From: a virus
Virus record (IMG/VR): IMGVR_UViG_3300044733_003647
Span: 64,001 to 128,000 of that record
Length of the DNA: 64,000 bases
Direction: 5' to 3' (one strand)
The notes beneath the pieces are model-generated. The model did no database searches, had not been told where the DNA came from, and worked only from the letters and a program-made list of their open reading frames with translations. The position numbers and the translations under genes are program-made. Positions 55,127 through 63,599 of this stretch are shown piece after piece; the first letter of the stretch is position 1; each line of letters begins with the position of its first letter.

Positions 55127-55588
55127 ATGACATACGTAAAAGATGTGTTCGGCAAAGACCTTTTCGACTTCCACAAATTTGACCCTTTCGCTGTTGGTTA
55201 CGACAAGATGTTCGATGACCTGCAAGAAATGGCAAAGAATGTGACTAAGGCTATTCCTTCTTATCCCCCATATAACATTCGCCAAGTCAAAGATAACAAA
55301 TGGGTTATCGAACTGGCAGTTGCAGGTTTTGCAAAATCTGATATTGAGGTAACTCTAGAAGGTAATAAATTGGTTATCAAAGGCGCAACACAGGACAATG
55401 AGCCTGAAGAAGGTACATTCCTACACAAAGGCATTGCTACTCGCAATTTCACCCGCGAATTCAAACTTGCGGACAAAATCGAAATTGAAAATGCGGAACT
55501 TACCAATGGTATGTTAAAGATTTGGTTGGAAAACCTAGTCAAAACACAAGACATGGTCAAGAAAATTTCCGTGAAAAGTAAAGAATAA
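55127..55588 (+). CDS. hsp20: Small heat-shock protein Hsp20/IbpA family
   Basis: YPPYNI...IELAVAGF...FLHKGIATRNF.R.F.LA...A.L.NGML.I.L. Confidence 0.95.
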   Translation: MTYVKDVFGKDLFDFHKFDPFAVGYDKMFDDLQEMAKNVTKAIPSYPPYNIRQVKDNKWVIELAVAGFAKSDIEVTLEGNKLVIKGATQDNEPEEGTFLHKGIATRNFTREFKLADKIEIENAELTNGMLKIWLENLVKTQDMVKKISVKSKE

Positions 55589-55589
55589 A

Positions 55590-55676
55590 ATGATTAGAAA
55601 ATTATTCGAAGCTTTTTTGGAAGCAATTCAAAATCTTAAAAAATATAAATCTGGACCAAGTATAAAAGGTAGTTAA
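55590..55676 (+). CDS. Small hypothetical peptide (28 aa)
   Basis: MIRKLFEAFLEAIQNLKKYKSGPSIKGS starts 1 nt after the hsp20 stop. Confidence 0.35.
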   Translation: MIRKLFEAFLEAIQNLKKYKSGPSIKGS

Positions 55677-55690
55677 TACCAAAACCAAAT

Positions 55691-55726
55691 GGAGGGCTTG
55701 ACAGGCCCTCCACTTTATTGTATAAT
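55691..55726 (+). promoter_or_regulatory. Sigma70 promoter whose -35 sits in a hairpin loop
   Basis: GGAGGGC-TTGACAG-GCCCTCC; TTGACA-N17-TATAAT. Confidence 0.75.
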
Positions 55727-55732
55727 TTTATT

Positions 55733-55930
55733 ATGAAAACGCAAAAAAAATCTATTCTCAAAAAAGTCCGTGTGAAAATCTCAAATGAGGAGTTCTACAC
55801 GTTCTCTGATTGGCCATCAAAGGAAATTGATGGTGTGGAATTTATTGCCGTGAATAAACGTCTTCCAGCAGGTAATCAAACACAACTAATCCATTGGTTG
55901 CGTAAAGATAGCGTAGAATATATCAAATAA
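55733..55930 (+). CDS. Hypothetical protein
   Basis: 65-aa ORF whose ATG lies about 7 nt after the -10 box (possibly leaderless). Confidence 0.6.
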   Translation: MKTQKKSILKKVRVKISNEEFYTFSDWPSKEIDGVEFIAVNKRLPAGNQTQLIHWLRKDSVEYIK

Positions 55931-55935
55931 TATTT

Positions 55936-56011
<76 letters not shown>

Positions 56012-56029
56012 TTTTAAAAAAGGAAAAAC

Positions 56030-56479
56030 ATGTCTACCACAATAAAAAACTTAGAGAGTGCATTGGCTGGTGAGTCAATGGCACATATTAAATATCGCTA
56101 TTTCGCCAAGATTGCCCAAGATGAAGGTTTTGAGGACATTGCTAAACATTTTTGGCATACCGCAGACCAAGAACTTCTACATGCATGGGGTCACCTTGAG
56201 TTGTTGATTGGTAAGCCTTCCACTAAAGAATGTTTGGAGAAAGCAATTGAAGGTGAAACGTATGAATTCACCACAATGTATCCAGATTTTCAACGTGCAG
56301 CTGAACTTGAAGGTGATCTTACCGCCTCAATGGAAGCAAAAGTACAAATTGAAGAATCTAAAGAACACGCCGAACAATTTAAAAAGGTTCTTGAATTGGC
56401 AGAGAAACGTTTCGCTGCACTTGCTAAGGTCGAGAAACGCCACGCAGAAGCATATCAACAAAAACTAGGAGAACTATAA
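56030..56479 (+). CDS. Rubrerythrin (ferritin-like domain)
   Basis: NLESALAGESMA..KY..FA..A..EG...QE..HA...GETYE...MYP.F...ES.EH. Confidence 0.9.
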   Translation: MSTTIKNLESALAGESMAHIKYRYFAKIAQDEGFEDIAKHFWHTADQELLHAWGHLELLIGKPSTKECLEKAIEGETYEFTTMYPDFQRAAELEGDLTASMEAKVQIEESKEHAEQFKKVLELAEKRFAALAKVEKRHAEAYQQKLGEL

Positions 56480-56610
56480 TGAGTGAGAAAGTATATGTTT
56501 GTATCGTTTGTGGTCACACATTGTCTGAAGCAGATTATTTGAGTCTGCCAGATTCAGTTAATTGTCCCGAGTGTGGTGTTTCTAAAGAAGATTATGTTTT
56601 GATGGAGTAA
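56479..56610 (+). CDS. Rubredoxin-like protein (not in ORF track)
   Basis: MSEKVYVCIVCGH...LPDSVNCPECGVSKEDY with two CxxC motifs; TAATG coupling. Confidence 0.85.
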   Translation: MSEKVYVCIVCGHTLSEADYLSLPDSVNCPECGVSKEDYVLME

Positions 56611-56613
56611 TTT

Positions 56614-57024
56614 ATGGACTGCATGGTTATTGGTGATAGCATTGCGGTTGGTACAGCAATGTACCGACCAGAATGTGTTAGTTATTCGCGTGGTGGTTGG
56701 AATACTTGGCAGTGGAATAGAGATTATCTTTCTATGGCATCAAGTAAATCTTATAAGACAGTGATTATTAGTTTGGGTGCTAATGACCATGCAGGCGTAA
56801 AAACTGAGCAAGAACTCCGCAAAATGCGTCAAAACATTAAAGCGGATAGAGTTTTTTGGATTAGTCCAGGTATGGAACGCAAGCCTGTACCTCAAACTGC
56901 AATCGAAAAAATTGCAAAAGAATATGGTGATTTTGTTTTACCTAGACCTAAAGATCATATGAGTACTGATGGAATTCATCCTACAGGTAAAGGTTATAAA
57001 ATTCTGGCAGAACAATCTAGATGA
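56614..57024 (+). CDS. SGNH/GDSL hydrolase-like protein
   Basis: IGDSIA, SLGAND, DGIHP. Confidence 0.8.
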   Translation: MDCMVIGDSIAVGTAMYRPECVSYSRGGWNTWQWNRDYLSMASSKSYKTVIISLGANDHAGVKTEQELRKMRQNIKADRVFWISPGMERKPVPQTAIEKIAKEYGDFVLPRPKDHMSTDGIHPTGKGYKILAEQSR

Positions 57025-57036
57025 ATACGAAGTTCC

Positions 57037-57531
57037 TTAAGTTTTTGTAAAGATTAGCCACATAAATTTAATAAAGGCAATTAAAATAAACAATCCAATC
57101 AAAGAAACAACTATGGTTAAAAAATCTTCTGCCATTTGTTCTCTTTGTTTGGCTTTTGCTTTTATCATTTCCCTTTCAGCAGCATTTCTCTCTTTGATTA
57201 GGCGTGTTCGTTCGCGGAGCATGTCTTCCCAAACATCTCCGTTGCCACTGTATATCAACAGTTCTTTAAGTTCTTTTTCGGCATCTCTGAGTCTTTTCGA
57301 ATTCATTGCAAGTTCTAAAGCTACAGCACCTAATTCACTGTCACTTTTACCAACATTTTTTGCTTTCAGTTTAACTGAAGCTGAATGTACCGTATCGGAT
57401 GAATTGAAAAATTTTATAAACTCACCGGTTAAAGAATGAATATCTTTACCTAGAGCCATTGCTTTTTTGATATTATTAACTGACGATTGAGCCACACTAA
57501 AAGCGATGCCGATTGTTACAGGATCAATCAT
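57037..57531 (-). CDS. Hypothetical membrane-anchored protein
   Basis: MIDPVTI N-terminus, coiled coil, C-terminal TM helix; the only clear minus-strand gene. Confidence 0.7.
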   Translation of the reverse strand: MIDPVTIGIAFSVAQSSVNNIKKAMALGKDIHSLTGEFIKFFNSSDTVHSASVKLKAKNVGKSDSELGAVALELAMNSKRLRDAEKELKELLIYSGNGDVWEDMLRERTRLIKERNAAEREMIKAKAKQREQMAEDFLTIVVSLIGLFILIAFIKFMWLIFTKT

Positions 57532-57551
57532 ATAATTATTTAGGATGTGAA

Positions 57552-58067
57552 ATGAAAGAAAAATTTATTAATGCATATATGAAAACGGCCGAGGTGTTCG
57601 CAGAACTATCCTCGGCTCGTAGACTCCATGTCGGTGCGATTGTTGTAAAAGATGATCGCATCATTTCAATTGGTTATAATGGTACTCCTTCTGGTTGGGA
57701 TAACAACTGTGAAGATAAAGAGTATATGGACCAAGGAGCTGGTGGTTGGCTCAGTCCAGAAGAAATTGAACATTCATGGCCAAACCTAGAACAACAACTT
57801 CCAAAAGAATCCAATATTTGGAAAAGATATAAGTTAACAACCAAACCTGAGGTACTTCATGCTGAAACAAATGCAATTGCAAAGTTGGCTAAAAATGGCG
57901 CTTCTTCTAATGGTGCTGTATTGTTTGTTACTCACGCTCCTTGTTTGGATTGCGCCAAGCTTGTATATCAAAGTGGCATCAATTCTGTGTATTATCGCAA
58001 CAGTTATCGTAGTGAAAGTGGCATTCAATTCTTGGAGAAAGCTGGAGTTAAAGTAGAGAAAATTTAG
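57552..58067 (+). CDS. dCMP deaminase
   Basis: VGAIVVKD.RIIS.GYNG, HAE.NAI, PCLDC. Confidence 0.92.
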   Translation: MKEKFINAYMKTAEVFAELSSARRLHVGAIVVKDDRIISIGYNGTPSGWDNNCEDKEYMDQGAGGWLSPEEIEHSWPNLEQQLPKESNIWKRYKLTTKPEVLHAETNAIAKLAKNGASSNGAVLFVTHAPCLDCAKLVYQSGINSVYYRNSYRSESGIQFLEKAGVKVEKI

Positions 58068-59181: not shown

Positions 59182-59210
59182 TTGACAAACAAACAAAACG
59201 CCTATATAAT
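59182..59210 (+). promoter_or_regulatory. Sigma70-consensus promoter driving the leader/attenuator
   Basis: TTGACA-N17-TATAAT. Confidence 0.85.
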
Positions 59211-59241
59211 ACAAACATTGTTAAATTTTTTAGGAAGAATC

Positions 59242-59346
59242 GTGTCTCTCATACATAAACCCTTTAGTTTGCAGCCAGAGTATCGCACAATTAATTGTGC
59301 CGATGCGTCATGGCCGACCGGGTTTTGTGTAGAAAAGGATTGTTAA
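59242..59346 (+). CDS. 34-aa putative attenuator leader peptide MSLIHKPFSLQPEYRTINCADASWPTGFCVEKDC
   Basis: AGGA SD at 59232, GTG start, TAA stop; all 20 amino acids; first 27 codons all distinct. Confidence 0.7.
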   Translation: MSLIHKPFSLQPEYRTINCADASWPTGFCVEKDC

Positions 59347-59383
59347 GAACTAAGTTCTAAAAAAGACTCCAAACACAAGACCC
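59320..59383 (+). promoter_or_regulatory. Antiterminator helix
   Basis: GGGTTTTGTGT (59320-59330) pairs 11/11 (one G-U) with ACACAAGACCC (59373-59383), overlapping the terminator 5' arm. Confidence 0.7.
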
Positions 59384-59410
59384 TTAGACTAAAACTCTAA
59401 GGGTTTTTTG
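59380..59410 (+). terminator. Intrinsic terminator (attenuator)
   Basis: ACCCTTAGA-CTAAAAC-TCTAAGGGT-TTTTT. Confidence 0.85.
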
Positions 59411-59415
59411 TTTGG

Positions 59416-59487
59416 TGTTGCGATAAAACAACACACTGGTTGACAGGTCATTGAATCTGTCATACAATACACTTTGTTCTTTAAAAA
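59416..59487 (+). promoter_or_regulatory. tRNA-array promoter 1 with upstream inverted repeat and boxA-like element
   Basis: TGTTG-N8-CAACA-N6-TTGACA-N17-TACAAT, then TGTTCTTTAAAAA (59475-59487). Confidence 0.75.
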
Positions 59488-59505: not shown

Positions 59506-59579
59506 TCCCGGATTGTGTAGTGGTAGCACAGCAGACTTTGACTCTGTTAGTATAAGTTCGATTCTTATTCCGGGTGCCA
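59506..59579 (+). tRNA. tRNA-Gln(TTG)
   Basis: GCAGA-CTTTGAC-TCTGT, TTCGA, CCA. Confidence 0.9.
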
Positions 59580-59784
59580 TAAGTATGATAATTAAGTTGT
59601 CGGATGTGTGAAAGCAAGAGCCTCGAAATTCTTGTAAGTTGGACCTAATTAGTCTAGTAGCAAACAAGTAACACTATCACTGACGGATCCTAAGAGTAGA
59701 AATACTCATAAGCACAGGCGCTGATAAATTGTGCATAATGCTTCCAATGTTGTGATGGAAGAACTTAATTATCATTCTTATGGC
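59576..59784 (+). ncRNA. Putative structured RNA closed by a 23-bp inverted repeat
   Basis: GCCATAAGTATGATAATTAAGTT / AACTTAATTATCATTCTTATGGC (22/23). Confidence 0.55.
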
Positions 59785-59798
59785 AAAGGAGATATGCA

Positions 59799-60257
59799 AT
59801 GAAAAAAATTGTATTGTCTATATTATTGTCTTTACCTTTATTTGCTCATGCATGTAAAGGTTATGTGATAGGATTTAAAGGTTTGAATGATTCATTTAAT
59901 TCTGTTGCATTTCAGAAATACTCAAATCGTTTAGGTTATTGTGGTAAATCTTTTTCTTGGTTTCAAGATAGAGAAGCATTACAATACATTCAAACACTAA
60001 AGAAACCTTATCGCCTTTATGGTTTCAGTAGAGGCGCACAGACAGTTTCAGATGTGTTAAAACAAACGAAAAGAAAACCTGAGTATGTCGTGACCATTGG
60101 TGCTTACAAAACTGCGAATGTTAATTTTGATGAGTACGATATACGTTATGATAATTTTTTTGACCATTCTGGAGTAGGTCAGAAAAGCCCAGGAGTATTT
60201 TTCAATGTGTCTCATGCAGACATAGAGAAAGAAGTTAGTGAATTTATAATAGAATAA
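59799..60257 (+). CDS. Exported alpha/beta-hydrolase-like protein
   Basis: Signal peptide MKKIVLSILLSLPLFAHA; GFSRG nucleophile elbow; AGGAG SD. Confidence 0.65.
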   Translation: MKKIVLSILLSLPLFAHACKGYVIGFKGLNDSFNSVAFQKYSNRLGYCGKSFSWFQDREALQYIQTLKKPYRLYGFSRGAQTVSDVLKQTKRKPEYVVTIGAYKTANVNFDEYDIRYDNFFDHSGVGQKSPGVFFNVSHADIEKEVSEFIIE

Positions 60258-60258
60258 T

Positions 60259-60350
60259 GGAAGCGTGCCAGAGTCCGGTTTATTGGAACAGTCTTGAAAA
60301 CTGTCGATCTAGAAATAGGTCCGTGAGTTCGAATCTCACCGCTTCCACCA
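60259..60350 (+). tRNA. tRNA-Ser(TGA)
   Basis: ACAGT-CTTGAAA-ACTGT, long variable arm, CCA. Confidence 0.92.
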
Positions 60351-60353
60351 ATT

Positions 60354-60427
60354 CAGGGTATATGATAGTGGCAGTCGCCGAGGTTTGGAACCTTGTAGTG
60401 CAAGTTCGATTCTTGCTACCCTGACCA
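60354..60427 (+). tRNA. tRNA-Pro(TGG) copy 1 (divergent)
   Basis: CGAGG-TTTGGAA-CCTTG, CCA. Confidence 0.85.
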
Positions 60428-60437
60428 CAAAGATTTC

Positions 60438-60527
60438 GGAGAGTGGGCAGGATGGTAATGCAGCGGATTGCTAATCCGTAGATCGTGTAACAGCGGTCAG
60501 TGGGTTCGACTCCCACACTCTCCACCA
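60438..60527 (+). tRNA. tRNA-Ser(GCT)
   Basis: GCGGA-TTGCTAA-TCCGT, long variable arm, CCA. Confidence 0.92.
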
Positions 60528-60529
60528 AT

Positions 60530-60620
60530 ACCTCTGTAGTTTAATGGTAAAACAGCGGATTTATACCCCGTAGCGCCAGATAAGCGGCTGATGTGAGTTC
60601 GATTCTCACCAGAGGTACCA
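60530..60620 (+). tRNA. Atypical tRNA with TAT anticodon and long variable arm
   Basis: ACCTCTG/CAGAGGT acceptor, GCGGA-TTTATAC-CCCGT, about 21-nt variable region, CCA. Confidence 0.75.
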
Positions 60621-60626
60621 ATTTAT

Positions 60627-60702
60627 GTGGGTGTGACCCGAAAGGCTAGGGAACGGATTGCAAATCCGTTTTATGCAGGTTCGATTCCTGTCACCCACTC
60701 CA
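60627..60702 (+). tRNA. tRNA-Cys(GCA)
   Basis: ACGGA-TTGCAAA-TCCGT, U73, CCA. Confidence 0.9.
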
Positions 60703-60729
60703 GTTCATTCGCCATTCGCGAATAGAGAA

Positions 60730-60819
60730 TGTTGTTAAAAAACAACAGTATGGTTGACAGATTCGGTAGTTCTGTTACAATACATTCATACGTTGAGAAA
60801 TCAACATGTTCTTTAAAAA
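60730..60819 (+). promoter_or_regulatory. tRNA-array promoter 2 with the same architecture
   Basis: TGTTG-N8-CAACA-N6-TTGACA-N16-TACAAT, then TGTTCTTTAAAAA (60807-60819). Confidence 0.75.
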
Positions 60820-60824
60820 TTTAC

Positions 60825-60913
60825 GCGAGTGTGGTGGAACGGTATACACAGCAGACTTAAAATCTGCCAGGACCGCAAGGTCCTTGAGGGTTCGAATCCC
60901 TCCACTCGCACCA
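60825..60913 (+). tRNA. tRNA-Leu(TAA)
   Basis: GCAGA-CTTAAAA-TCTGC, long variable arm, CCA. Confidence 0.92.
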
Positions 60914-60915
60914 AT

Positions 60916-60991
60916 GCACCTATCGTCTAACGGTTAGGACGGCGCCCTTTCAAGGCGCAAACGAGGGGTTCGATTCCCCCTAGGTGTACCA
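60916..60991 (+). tRNA. tRNA-Glu(TTC)
   Basis: GCGCC-CTTTCAA-GGCGC, CCA. Confidence 0.9.
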
Positions 60992-61138
60992 TTTGTTTAG
61001 TGTTATCAAGGTATCGTGTATGGACGCATACACTATTCGGGCTCAACCGGCCGGGAACGGGTCCTGATATAACTGCATCGGCTTTGAAGAGGAAGCACCT
61101 CAATTCTAAATTTGCACGATAACACTAAACAAATGGTA
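60987..61138 (+). ncRNA. Putative structured RNA closed by a perfect 21-bp inverted repeat
   Basis: TACCATTTGTTTAGTGTTATC / GATAACACTAAACAAATGGTA. Confidence 0.55.
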
Positions 61139-61144
61139 ATTTAT

Positions 61145-61218
61145 GGGGGTATAACTTAGTGGTAAAGTATCCGGCTTTTAACCGGAAAACCAGAGTTCAA
61201 TTCTCTGTGCCCCTACCA
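61145..61218 (+). tRNA. tRNA-Lys(TTT)
   Basis: TCCGG-CTTTTAA-CCGGA, CCA. Confidence 0.92.
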
Positions 61219-61329
61219 TATAAAAACACATTGTCATGCAGCACAGCCGAATCTGTGTGTAACTCCTAGGCGTAACCTATTGTGAGAAATAGGGGAGTGC
61301 AATTCTCATCAGTGTGTTTCTATATGGTA
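61214..61329 (+). ncRNA. Putative structured RNA closed by a 20-bp inverted repeat
   Basis: TACCATATAAAAACACATTG / CAGTGTGTTTCTATATGGTA (one mismatch, one G-U). Confidence 0.5.
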
Positions 61330-61331
61330 AA

Positions 61332-61485
61332 TTATTTGTTGAAAGCCTGACAGAAAGTGCTTAACCAGCGGCCTAACTCTCAAGGTAATACCAACCCTTG
61401 CACTTATTGCTGTGGTGGCAATCGCTTCCAAGGGGACCACTTTATTACTAGGTCTTAAACAGTAGAGAGTGCTTTCAACAAATAA
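61332..61485 (+). ncRNA. Putative structured RNA closed by a perfect 15-bp inverted repeat
   Basis: TTATTTGTTGAAAGC / GCTTTCAACAAATAA. Confidence 0.5.
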
Positions 61486-61557
61486 AAAGGGAGAATCGCC
61501 GCGAGGCGTATTCTTAAACGACCTGTAGAACTCCCAGGCGTCCCGTAGTTAGTTTTT

Positions 61558-61650
61558 GGAGGTCTTGATGCTAAGGCGTGTGCATCACCGGACTGTAAAT
61601 CCGGTCCCTCGTGGTAAACATTCGCGGTTCGACTCCGTGGACCTCCACCA
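61558..61650 (+). tRNA. tRNA-Tyr(GTA)
   Basis: CCGGA-CTGTAAA-TCCGG, long variable arm, CCA. Confidence 0.9.
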
Positions 61651-61668
61651 ATTTAATAGGAGAGTACT

Positions 61669-61872
61669 ATGTTAATTTCAGAAATATCAAATTATACCAC
61701 TTGGGTGGGTGATATTAGAAAAACAATAGTAAGAGAAATTTTTAAATATGATGAGGGTAATGATGTAATAGTTGTAACAGTTCATGGTCAAGAATTTGCA
61801 CAACTGTATAGTGAAAAAGGAAAAGAAGTTTCACAAGATAATAAAGGAACGAATATAGATATTCGTGCTTAA
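61669..61872 (+). CDS. Hypothetical protein
   Basis: 67-aa ORF with AGGAG SD inside the tRNA array. Confidence 0.6.
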   Translation: MLISEISNYTTWVGDIRKTIVREIFKYDEGNDVIVVTVHGQEFAQLYSEKGKEVSQDNKGTNIDIRA

Positions 61873-61877
61873 GATTT

Positions 61878-61952
61878 GGTCTCAAAGTGTTCATGGACGC
61901 ACGTATGCCTGTCACGCATAAAGAAGGGGATCGTTACCCCTTGGGACCGCCA
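61878..61952 (+). tRNA. tRNA-Asp(GTC)
   Basis: TATGC-CTGTCAC-GCATA; T-loop ATCGTTA; G73, CCA. Confidence 0.88.
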
Positions 61953-61956
61953 GAAC

Positions 61957-62157
61957 GTTCTGTCTAATCAACAGATAGTCTGACCCGGACGATGAGAAGT
62001 GGTGTGATATCCACGGGTGGTACACTTTAAACCGAAAGTGCGTTGGCAATACGATAACGGTCCCTGTCGGGAAGCGGGTGGAAGGTATGCGTGATGGATA
62101 TGAGAGACAACCAACTAAATCCTGATGTACTACAATTACCGCCGGGGGACGCAGAGC
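61957..62157 (+). ncRNA. Putative GC-rich structured RNA after tRNA-Asp
   Basis: Ends pair (GTTCTGT/GCAGAGC; CCCGG/CCGGG); internal hairpins; no credible ORF. Confidence 0.45.
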
Positions 62158-62248
62158 ATATTGAAACACATTCGCCTTCCCATGGTGGGAAGGTCCCGTA
62201 AAGCTGTCCTAGGCGGTGGGGTAGTTGCAAGAAGTGTGTTTCAATATG
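62157..62248 (+). ncRNA. Putative structured RNA closed by a perfect 14-bp inverted repeat
   Basis: CATATTGAAACACA / TGTGTTTCAATATG. Confidence 0.5.
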
Positions 62249-62394
62249 GTGTCTGCAAACTGCTCACTTGTTGAACCTATAATTTACTAGACGGGTGACT
62301 AGGATGGTTCGCAACCTTAAAGGTATGATCCGTACAGCGTTAACGGACAGTCTAGTAAGTCGGATATGAGCACCGACCACCATTTTATTTTTAT

Positions 62395-62689: not shown

Positions 62690-62764
62690 GGTACTATGAC
62701 GTAGACGGATGCGTACCGGTTTCATAAGCCGAGGAGATTGGATCGTTACCAATTAGTACCACCA
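62690..62764 (+). tRNA. tRNA-Met(CAT), elongator-like
   Basis: CCGGT-TTCATAA-GCCGA; T-loop ATCGTTA; CCA. Confidence 0.8.
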
Positions 62765-63001: not shown

Positions 63002-63027
63002 TAAGTAAAATAAGAAAGGTGATTGAT

Positions 63028-63516
63028 ATGAAAAATTTCAATTTGCAAGAAGTAAAAGAATTTGTCTTGAATCAAGGACCCGATACGAAAGTTTATTTGG
63101 GTGCAGACTCAGAACGTATTCGTGTTAATGGTGTTTGGTATGCAGATTATGCTCTTGCAGTTGTAGTTCATATCGATGGTCGCCATGGTTGTAAAATCTT
63201 TGGTTATGTTGAGAGAGAACTGGATTACGATCATAAGAAAAGTAAACCAGCAATGCGTCTGATGACTGAAGTTTATAAAGTGTCTGAATTGTTCCAAAGT
63301 TTGGCTGATGTGTTGGAAGACCGTCATGTTGAAGTTCACTTAGACCTTAATAAGTCTGATGAATACGGAAGTTCATGCGTTGTACAACAAGCAATTGGTT
63401 ATATCAAAGGTACATGTAACATGACACCTATGGTTAAACCAGATGCACCAGCTGCTTCGTTCTGTGCAGACCGATTAAAACGGATTCTTACAGAACAAGT
63501 AACTGTAACATGTTAA
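63028..63516 (+). CDS. RNase H-like YkuK/DUF458 family protein
   Basis: VYLGADSE...RLMTEVYK...EVHLDLN...GYI...VKPDA.AAS..AD. Confidence 0.8.
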   Translation: MKNFNLQEVKEFVLNQGPDTKVYLGADSERIRVNGVWYADYALAVVVHIDGRHGCKIFGYVERELDYDHKKSKPAMRLMTEVYKVSELFQSLADVLEDRHVEVHLDLNKSDEYGSSCVVQQAIGYIKGTCNMTPMVKPDAPAASFCADRLKRILTEQVTVTC

Positions 63517-63523
63517 TGACGAT

Positions 63524-63599
63524 GGAGTTATTAGTGTAGTGGACTGCACACCTTGCTGTGACCGAGGTAGTATGAGTTCGATCCTCATATAACTCCCCA
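63524..63599 (+). tRNA. tRNA-His(GTG)
   Basis: CCTTG-CTGTGAC-CGAGG; G-1/C73; CCA. Confidence 0.9.

What the first reader, a model, noticed from the sequence alone, without database searches (positions are those of the whole stretch)
59576..62248. Family of stem-closed RNA cassettes hanging off tRNA 3' ends
Seen: five spacers (59576-59784, 60987-61138, 61214-61329, 61332-61485, 62157-62248) are each closed by a 14-23 bp AT-rich inverted repeat around an unrelated, more GC-rich, hairpin-containing core of about 65-165 nt. In three, the 5' arm begins within the tRNA's NCCA, so the 3' arm (TGGT/TGGC) can sequester the CCA end. Two share CATAT..AAACACA / TGTGTTT..ATATGG. Inference: a modular expression format in which long stems (RNase III-like sites) release small cargo RNAs from the tRNA precursor, or control tRNA 3' maturation. 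An alternative is MITE-like insertions targeting tRNA ends.
Basis: partly seen in the sequence, partly recalled or inferred. Interest (0 to 1): 0.7.

Follow-up and report, generated by a model that had tools for sequence, protein, structure and literature searches.

The report
Stem-closed RNA cassettes behind phage tRNAs
Between the tRNA genes of this uncultured freshwater T4-like phage lie small non-coding modules, each clamped by a roughly 20-base-pair RNA stem that starts on the previous tRNA's CCA end; they belong to a large, unannotated, phage-wide family with swappable interiors, and what they do is still untested.

Summary
All five inverted repeats are at the stated coordinates. Three start inside the NCCA of tRNA-Gln, tRNA-Glu and tRNA-Lys, and two share CATAT..AAACACA arms.

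They belong to a large family. I found 206 distinct cassettes in more than 200 viral contigs, including 225-364 kb phages and the cultured Synechococcus phage BUCT-ZZ01. The scan had already noted this family on other genomes (e1-5407280, e1-5340917).

- **Stem:** The closing stem is an RNA helix on the tRNA strand. G·U outnumbers A·C by 148 to 33, it is 18-23 bp long, and pairing runs out to tRNA positions 73 and 72 and then stops.
- **Interiors:** They fall into about 115 unrelated clusters, are never inverted, and are gained, lost or replaced at the same tRNA in close relatives. Eight clusters sit behind different tRNAs.
- **Cassette 2:** It is a conserved folded RNA with 17 compensatory pairs.

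Nothing matches Rfam. There is no target-site duplication, and I found no transposase, RNase III or RNA ligase in the phage.

My best reading is that these are co-transcribed small RNAs set in a processing and stability stalk, probably cut by host RNase III, and that the conserved arms also let interiors be swapped by recombination. Cleavage, RNA accumulation and cargo function are all unshown.

The parts
59440..59468 (+). sigma-70-type promoter (TTGACA-17-TACAAT) ahead of tRNA-Gln, cassette 1 and the following ORF
   Evidence: 11 of 12 matches; no + strand terminator-like site between it and cassette 5 (only a weak match inside tRNA-Arg further on)
59506..59579 (+). tRNA-Gln(UUG). Its U72-G73-C-C-A forms the first five pairs of the cassette 1 stem, and its 1:72 position is U.U
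59575..59785 (+). Cassette 1: 211 nt with a 24-bp closing stem, placed between tRNA-Gln and the ribosome-binding site of ORF 59799-60257
   Evidence: z = -4.6. One other contig carries it at 99% identity (L005/L125). L004 and L006 have other cassettes at this site
60754..60781 (+). sigma-70-type promoter ahead of tRNA-Leu, tRNA-Glu, cassette 2 and what follows
   Evidence: 11 of 12 matches with an extended -10 TG
60916..60991 (+). tRNA-Glu(UUC), with G1.U72 and an ACCA end that lies in the cassette 2 stem
60987..61138 (+). Cassette 2: 152 nt with a 21-bp perfect stem. It is a conserved structured RNA with three core hairpins and conserved single-stranded motifs AAGGUAUCG and CUGAUAUAACUGC
   Evidence: 17 compensatory pairs; 0 of 500 shuffles reach the observed score. 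Present in 53 loci
61145..61218 (+). tRNA-Lys(UUU), with G1.U72 and a UACCA end that lies in the cassette 3 stem
61214..61329 (+). Cassette 3: 116 nt with family-type arms CCAUAUAAAAACACAUUG / CAGUGUGUUUCUAUAUGG, which include the recurrent A.C mismatch. Its core is unique to this genome
   Evidence: The site is empty in L004, L005, L006 and L008
61332..61485 (+). Cassette 4: 154 nt with a 15-bp stem, lying 2 nt after cassette 3. It is not anchored on a CCA, and its core is unique to this genome
61953..62156 (+). A conserved structured RNA of about 204 nt directly after tRNA-Asp. Cassette 5 begins at its 3' end (..GAGCA|U)
   Evidence: 25 of 46 predicted pairs compensatory, 18 distinct sequences; present in 25 loci
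62157..62248 (+). Cassette 5: 92 nt with family-type arms CAUAUUGAAACACA / UGUGUUUCAAUAUG
   Evidence: Absent in L006 and L008. One homologue at 78% identity lies at a different site in L084
62249..62394 (+). A unique non-coding element that ends in a small hairpin plus CACCA, just before tRNA-Asn. It is gained or lost together with cassette 5

Best explanation
The cassettes are RNA modules transcribed as part of the phage's tRNA operons. Each is a small, GC-richer, folded 'cargo' RNA held in a roughly 20-bp AU-rich closing helix. That helix starts on positions 72-76 of the upstream tRNA (or on the 3' end of another RNA) and stacks directly on the acceptor stem. I infer that the helix is a processing and stability stalk. 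A double-strand-specific host nuclease, most likely RNase III, cuts it. This frees the tRNA with a short trailer that exonucleases trim back to CCA, and leaves the cargo with paired, protected ends. Because the arm sequences are shared among cassettes, they also act as recombination handles, so cargos are exchanged, gained and lost between co-infecting phages. Shown here: the family exists, it lies within transcription units, the helix is kept at the RNA level, some cargos have conserved structure, and cassettes swap and relocate. Inferred: the cleavage, the nuclease responsible, the accumulation of cargo RNAs, and any cargo function.
For: (1) Co-transcription is plausible. Near-consensus promoters sit at 59440 and 60754, no + strand terminator lies among the cassettes, and all cassettes are on the tRNA strand.
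(2) The stem is an RNA helix. In 127 distinct cassettes the arms hold 148 G.U against 33 A.C, and 21 of the A.C cases are one recurrent position. Arms change in a compensatory way. In L248 a cassette 2 core at 85% identity carries a completely different 16-bp stem.
(3) Pairing reaches C74 in 97 of 103, N73 in 86 of 103 and N72 in 85 of 103, and then drops to 17 of 103 at N71. The 3' arm follows the discriminator base (UGGCA/UGGUA at Gln, UGGUG at Ala).
(4) Stem length is tightly set at 18-23 bp with a median of 20-21, about two A-form turns, which is the size of RNase III substrates by established knowledge.
(5) In the predicted folds no unpaired base separates the acceptor stem from the cassette stem, so nucleases that need a single-stranded trailer have no entry point.
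(6) The cargos look functional. Cassette 2 has 17 compensatory pairs, 98.3% of cells paired, and 0 of 500 shuffles reach its covariation score. Compensatory hairpins are visible in clusters 9 and 10. Across 49 core clusters the mean fold z-score is -0.73 (p = 2e-5), and core GC is 46% against 38% for the genome.
(7) The cassettes are modular. Three different cassettes occupy the tRNA-Gln site in the window, L004 and L006, and L006 uses the arms of window cassette 3 around a different core. There are 115 core clusters, and 8 of them occur behind more than one tRNA type.
(8) In the same genome, the intervening segment of the two-piece tmRNA, which must be removed, is also a stem-closed module right after a CCA end.
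Against: The phage encodes no RNase III and the host is unknown. The arm sequence is conserved far beyond what pairing needs, across unrelated phage lineages, and a generic RNase III site does not explain that. The cores of cassettes 3 and 4 are singletons, and cassettes 1 and 5 each have only one near-full-length relative (one partial hit suggests cassette 1 may have remoter relatives), so selection on their structure could not be tested. As a population the cores are only modestly more stable than shuffles. The 3' side of a cassette is usually not next to an RNase P site: the median distance to the next tRNA is 91 nt.
Confidence: 0.5

Rival explanations
1. The essential part is a CCA clamp for tRNA maturation or regulation. 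By pairing N72-A76 the stem keeps the tRNA 3' end out of reach of RNase P, aminoacylation or CCA-directed enzymes until it is processed, which sets the order or timing of maturation for particular tRNAs. On this view the interior is mostly a tolerated loop.
For: Pairing through N73 and N72 is kept in about 83% of cases and follows the identity of the discriminator base. The cassette-bearing tRNAs have weak 1:72 pairs, G.U or U.U. Cassettes concentrate on Glu, Gln and Lys, which account for about 80% in two independent samples. Near-isogenic 'empty' sites still carry CCA plus 7-11 nt ending in GGU(G), which could form a mini-clamp.
Against: Cassettes 4 and 5 and many relatives are not anchored on a tRNA CCA. 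In BUCT-ZZ01 and L248 the stems start at or after A76 and leave CC unpaired. Most copies of tRNA-Lys and tRNA-Gln in relatives do without a cassette: 16% and 33% carry one. Trailers of cassette-less tRNAs are not enriched in UGGN'. Conserved cores with covariation are unexplained.
Confidence: 0.2
2. The cassettes are selfish, non-autonomous mobile DNA (MITE-like or foldback elements) that insert after tRNA 3' ends. Their RNA hairpins are a by-product, as with the Correia elements of Neisseria, whose transcripts RNase III happens to cut.
For: Close relatives differ in presence or absence. The same core with its arms appears behind different tRNAs. Terminal inverted repeats are conserved across unrelated phages. 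In L034 a cassette at tRNA-Lys keeps the GGUG end typical of the tRNA-Ala site.
Against: There is no target-site duplication; the flanks are inverted complements, not direct repeats. The interiors form about 115 unrelated clusters rather than copies of one element. Orientation is always the same as that of the tRNAs. G.U far exceeds A.C in the arms, which implies selection on the RNA rather than the DNA. The phage has no tyrosine recombinase or Y1 transposase. Cores covary.
Confidence: 0.15
3. The stems are plain RNA-stability hairpins or transcript punctuation. They protect the adjacent mRNA or tRNA from exonucleases or RNase E, and no cargo is released.
For: Cassette 1 sits exactly between tRNA-Gln and the ribosome-binding site of an ORF, where a 5' stem-loop could stabilise the mRNA. 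The hairpins are very stable.
Against: A simple hairpin would do the job. The large interiors with conserved structure, the tight 18-23 bp stem length and the CCA anchoring are not needed for it.
Confidence: 0.1

Closest known systems
RNase III processing stalks (stems formed by the flanks of 16S and 23S rRNA; phage T7 early-RNA sites)
   Same: Sequences flanking a structured RNA pair into a helix of about two turns inside a polycistronic transcript. The helix is maintained by compensatory change.
   Different: Here the 5' strand of the stalk is the 3' end of a tRNA. The stalk sequence is itself conserved across lineages, the enclosed RNA is interchangeable and of unknown function, and cleavage is unproven.
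Phage T4 stable RNAs rnaD (species 2) and rnaC (species 1)
   Same: They are small non-coding RNAs of unknown function encoded directly after a tRNA in a T4-type tRNA cluster (PMC3014915, PMC9697503). A few cassettes carry a T-arm-like hairpin, as rnaC does.
   Different: There is no sequence similarity. T4's RNAs have no CCA-anchored closing inverted repeat, and rnaD ends in CACCA.
Intervening segment of circularly permuted two-piece tmRNA genes
   Same: It is a spacer that begins right after a CCA end, is closed by a stem, and is removed from the precursor. This phage's own tmRNA has one.
   Different: The tmRNA segment is followed at once by the 5' acceptor strand, which is an RNase P site. 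The cassettes are usually not.
Correia / MITE-type repeats whose transcripts are cut by RNase III (from my own knowledge, not checked in a paper here)
   Same: They are short non-coding elements with terminal inverted repeats of about 20 bp, variable in presence, that fold into long hairpins when co-transcribed.
   Different: The cassettes have no TA duplication, unrelated interiors, a single orientation and a tRNA-end anchor.
PeSL promoter-stem-loop cassettes of T4-type phages (PMC2839356, PMC4122927)
   Same: Short conserved non-coding motifs serve as recombination handles for modular shuffling in T4-type genomes.
   Different: PeSLs are direct repeats carrying an early promoter plus a terminator and flank ORFs. 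The cassettes are inverted arms around RNA cargos and carry no promoter.

Membership tests
RNase III processing stalk | A helix of about 20 bp or more formed by sequences flanking the released RNA | tested here: met
   Stems are 18-23 bp with a median of 20-21. In the window they are 14-24 bp.
RNase III processing stalk | The helix is maintained at the RNA level | tested here: met
   G.U 148 against A.C 33; compensatory arm changes; a whole-arm replacement in L248.
RNase III processing stalk | Staggered cleavage by RNase III within the helix | not testable with these tools
The phage has no RNase III and the host is unknown.
MITE / foldback transposon | Terminal inverted repeats | tested here: met
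MITE / foldback transposon | Target-site duplication (direct repeat) at the flanks | tested here: not met
   Comparisons of filled and empty sites show no duplication. The outer bases are inverted complements (UG..CA, CA..UG).
MITE / foldback transposon | Many copies alike over the whole element | tested here: not met
   206 distinct cores fall into 115 clusters, most of them singletons.
MITE / foldback transposon | Insertion in either orientation | tested here: not met
   No core was found inverted relative to the tRNAs. The one apparent case was an orientation I had assigned wrongly.
MITE / foldback transposon | A cognate transposase somewhere in the genome | tested here: inconclusive
   No PF00589 or PF01797. 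An RNase H-like ORF (PF04308) lies in the tRNA cluster, but KVP40 has that ORF without cassettes.
T4 rnaC/rnaD stable RNAs | Position directly downstream of a tRNA in the phage tRNA cluster | tested here: met
T4 rnaC/rnaD stable RNAs | Homology in sequence or structure | tested here: not met
   No similarity. The T4 region has no CCA-anchored stems. A T-arm motif occurs in only 4 of 127 cassettes.
Any Rfam family | A covariance-model match | tested here: not met
   Only tRNAs at E up to 1 over 9 kb. Nothing credible at E up to 10 on the cassette stretches.
Bacterial Y RNA (YrlA) | A Ro60/Rsr partner and a tRNA-like module on a long stem | tested here: not met
   The phage has no TROVE and no RtcB. 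The only YrlA hit scores 21 bits and lies over tRNAs.
Two-piece tmRNA intervening segment | Lies between the CCA end of the acceptor piece and the 5' acceptor strand | tested here: not met
   The cassettes follow ordinary tRNAs, and the next tRNA is a median 91 nt away. The genome's true tmRNA segment is elsewhere.
PeSL shuffling cassette | An early promoter plus stem-loop as direct repeats flanking ORFs | tested here: not met
   No strong + strand promoter match lies within a cassette, and the arms are inverted rather than direct repeats.

The most novel reading that the evidence does not exclude
The invariant stem is a dedicated, sequence-specifically recognised 'expression socket' shared by many unrelated freshwater phages. 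It delivers a fast-turning-over repertoire of small RNAs from tRNA transcripts. These might be decoys, sponges or guides used in the arms race with host defences, perhaps connected with the tRNAs they follow most often (Lys, Glu, Gln), which as I recall are the usual targets of anticodon nucleases. The turnover of interiors would then reflect diversifying selection rather than drift.
Probability: 0.15. Interest if true: 0.85.

Novelty: new variant of a known kind. Interest (0 to 1): 0.62.

Why it matters
Phage tRNA clusters are usually annotated as tRNAs plus 'spacers'. Here much of the spacer DNA proves to be a structured, evolutionarily maintained and modular RNA system. It is found in hundreds of uncultured phages and at least one cultured cyanophage, and it is absent from Rfam and, as far as I could find, from the literature. 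If the cargos are released, phages carry a large and rapidly exchanged set of small RNAs of unknown function, and the half-century-old question of T4's RNAC and RNAD gains a much broader context. The CCA-anchored stem also bears on how tRNA 3' ends are made in polycistronic phage transcripts. BUCT-ZZ01 on Synechococcus elongatus PCC 7942 makes all of this testable.

Tried and rejected
- **Rfam:** Searches of the window and of 10 related loci gave only tRNAs.
- **Y RNA reading:** Dropped, because the phage has neither Ro60 nor RtcB.
- **Nick-sealing or circularisation by a phage ligase:** An Rnl2-type ligase (PF09414) is absent. The Rnl1 search was uninformative because its control did not ring anywhere. 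No CCA-adding enzyme was found.
- **tRNA punctuation (RNase P of the next tRNA setting the cassette 3' end):** Rejected as a general rule. Only 11% of cassettes lie within 12 nt of the next tRNA.
- **General CCA-clamp in all tRNA trailers:** Rejected. 6.1% carry UGGN', close to the 3-8% background frequency of such four-base words.
- **Shared core motif:** None found. No 7-mer occurs in more than 5 of 58 clusters.
- **Degenerate pattern scan of bacterial genomes for cassette 2:** It gave chance hits, apart from one phage-like contig binned in a Haliscomenobacter MAG.
- **T4 and KVP40:** Their tRNA regions have no such cassettes.
- **Literature:** Searches found no description of the family.
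Full report
**Setting.** The window is bases 64001-128000 of a 156.7-kb IMG/VR virus record. Its sheath, portal, scaffold and major-head genes follow the T4 gene order. Among the cultured phages searched with ORF 63019-63516, the nearest is the freshwater Synechococcus phage BUCT-ZZ01 (Kyanoviridae), at 53% identity. ARAGORN finds 22 tRNAs in the window and 28 in the genome. The finding covers the first 2.7 kb of this tRNA cluster.

**Observation.**
- Three 5' arms start at N72/N73 of tRNA-Gln, tRNA-Glu and tRNA-Lys, so the 3' arms (..AUGGCA, ..AUGGUA) pair with the NCCA end.
- Cassettes 3 and 5 share CAUAU..AAACACA arms.
- Elsewhere in the 156.7-kb genome only two inverted repeats have arms of 15 nt or more at this spacing.
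- Near-consensus promoters at 59440 and 60754, with no + strand terminator among the cassettes, place all five inside tRNA transcription units.
- In the predicted folds the cloverleaf is intact and the cassette stem begins with no unpaired base after the acceptor stem.

**Relatives.**
- Three loci anchored on ORF 59799-60257 showed cassette swapping straight away. After tRNA-Gln, the window and L005 carry cassette 1. L004 carries a different stem-closed cassette. L006 carries a third, which has the arms of window cassette 3 around a different core.
- Cassettes 3 and 4 are missing in L004, L005, L006 and L008. There the tRNA's CCA is followed by a few bases and then the common downstream sequence.
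- Cassette 5 and the element after it are missing in L006 and L008.
- Cassette 2 is present in 53 loci.

**Census.** In the window genome plus loci L004-L135 I found 127 distinct cassettes with CAU(A/U)(A/U) arms.
- 103 start inside the NCCA of a tRNA, mostly Glu, Gln and Lys, then Ala, Leu, Val and others.
- A second sample was fetched only by the arm pattern. Of 88 cassettes, 63 lie directly after a tRNA CCA, 38 of them after tRNA-Lys.
- Together the two samples give 206 distinct cores in 115 BLAST clusters. Eight clusters occur behind more than one tRNA type, and none is inverted.
- BUCT-ZZ01 has at least four such cassettes. T4 and KVP40 have none.
- Earlier notes of this scan describe the same family on other genomes.

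**RNA or DNA?**
- Over the first 18 arm positions, counted without any filter on pairing, there are 148 G.U against 33 A.C, and 21 of the A.C cases fall at one recurrent position. That asymmetry is expected for a helix in RNA made from the tRNA strand, not for protein-bound DNA repeats.
- Outward pairing holds at C74 (97 of 103), N73 (86) and N72 (85), and collapses at N71 (17). The 3' arm follows the discriminator base.
- Stems are 18-23 bp long, with a median of 20-21.
- A cassette 2 homologue in a Haliscomenobacter MAG contig keeps the core at 85% identity but has an entirely different 16-bp stem.

**Cargo.**
- The cassette 2 alignment of 29 sequences has 17 pairs with compensatory changes in three core hairpins. 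98.3% of cells are paired. The covariation score is 0.406 against 0.120 for shuffles (0 of 500 reach it) and at most 0.097 when the partners are slid.
- Other multi-member clusters show visible compensatory hairpins around conserved loops.
- Across 49 core clusters the mean fold z-score is -0.73 (p = 2e-5). Cores are 46% GC, against 29% for arms and 38% for the genome.
- No motif is common to the cores. Only 4 of 127 carry a T-arm-like hairpin.
- Rfam has nothing for any of them.
- The cores of cassettes 3 and 4 are unique to this genome. Cassette 1 is in one other contig at near-full length, with a shared k-mer hint of remoter relatives. Cassette 5 has one 78% homologue at another site.

**Mobility.**
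- There is no target-site duplication, and the outer bases are inverted complements.
- Near-isogenic empty sites read CCA + 7-11 nt + GGU(G) + the common flank. That could be either a footprint or a precursor mini-hairpin.
- The phage has no tyrosine recombinase, Y1 transposase, RNase III, CCA-adding enzyme or Rnl2-type ligase.
- An RNase H-like ORF (PF04308) lies inside the tRNA cluster. KVP40 has the same ORF without cassettes.
- The simplest account is exchange by homologous recombination within the shared arms, which T4-type phages do readily (compare the PeSL motifs, PMC2839356). I cannot explain first insertions into empty sites.

**Mechanism.**
- I commit, at about 0.5, to a processing and stability stalk that releases the tRNA and the cargo, with host RNase III as the most likely nuclease.
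- The reasons are that the junction is fully double-stranded, the stem is about two turns long, and this phage's own two-piece tmRNA uses a similar stem-closed spacer after its CCA.
- Conservation of the arm sequence across lineages is not explained by this model. It leaves room for a specific recognition factor.
- The CCA-clamp reading (0.2), the selfish-element reading (0.15) and the simple-hairpin reading (0.1) remain open.

**Comparison and novelty.**
- Functionally the nearest parallels are rRNA and T7 RNase III stalks, the tmRNA intervening segment and T4's RNAC and RNAD, whose roles are still unknown (PMC3014915, PMC9697503).
- The cassettes are not a member of any curated RNA family, and they fail three defining MITE features.
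- I rate them a new variant of a known kind. The family is real, large and unannotated, and its function is unproven.

Noticed in passing
window 61953-62156: A GC-rich RNA of about 204 nt directly after tRNA-Asp. It is conserved in 25 loci, and 25 of its 46 predicted pairs show compensatory changes. It has no Rfam match. In L004 and L005 an HNH-type endonuclease ORF takes its place.
   Followed up: partly
window 63019-63516: An ORF inside the tRNA cluster matches Pfam PF04308 (RNase H-like, E = 5e-14) and PHROG 11311. More than 327 IMG/VR stretches encode a relative. KVP40-like vibriophages, Xanthomonas phages and Ruegeria phages also have it. It is a candidate RNA- or DNA-processing enzyme of tRNA-rich phages.
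   Followed up: partly
G000:C1:30600-30770 (about 33 kb before the window): In the phage's two-piece tmRNA gene, the segment between the CCA end of the acceptor piece and the GGGCCUG 5' strand is itself a stem-closed module (AAGAAUUCUG / CAGAAUUCUU). It shares AUUCUGAGUG with the start of one cassette cluster.
   Followed up: partly
L078:8517-8600, L019:2467-2559, L137:2180-2279: In many relatives, and in BUCT-ZZ01, tRNA-His is enclosed by a 14-20 bp stem formed by its leader and trailer, so a true tRNA sits in the same stem-closed format. The window's own tRNA-His (63525-63599) lacks this extension.
   Followed up: no
window tRNAs 59506-59579, 60916-60991, 61145-61218 and relatives: The cassette-bearing tRNAs have weak first pairs: U1.U72 in Gln and G1.U72 in Glu and Lys. 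About 80% of CCA-anchored cassettes follow Glu, Gln or Lys. From memory, these are the tRNAs with modified 2-thiouridine at the wobble position that anticodon nucleases favour.
   Followed up: partly
window 62690-62761: A tRNA-like element found by the Rfam tRNA model (41.5 bits) but not by ARAGORN, between tRNA-Ala and tRNA-Arg. It is conserved in 24 loci.
   Followed up: no
window 62249-62394: A unique non-coding element after cassette 5, with a 9-bp inner inverted repeat (UUACUAGAC / GUCUAGUAA) and a terminal small hairpin followed by CACCA. It has no homologue in any fetched locus.
   Followed up: no
window 59182-59420: A perfect TTGACA-17-TATAAT promoter, then a stretch of about 200 nt conserved in 34 loci that ends in a strong intrinsic terminator (59377-59407), just upstream of the tRNA-Gln promoter.
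   Followed up: no
L248:5380-5710 (NZ_JBBAKG010000090.1, Haliscomenobacter sp. MAG, 23-kb contig): A phage-like run of tRNA-Glu, a cassette 2 homologue and tRNA-Asp sits on a contig binned with a freshwater Bacteroidota MAG. It could be a mis-binned phage contig or a weak hint about the host.
   Followed up: no
window 55127-58067: Auxiliary genes just upstream of the tRNA cluster: Hsp20, rubrerythrin, a GDSL-like hydrolase and a dCMP/cytidine deaminase (Pfam).
   Followed up: no
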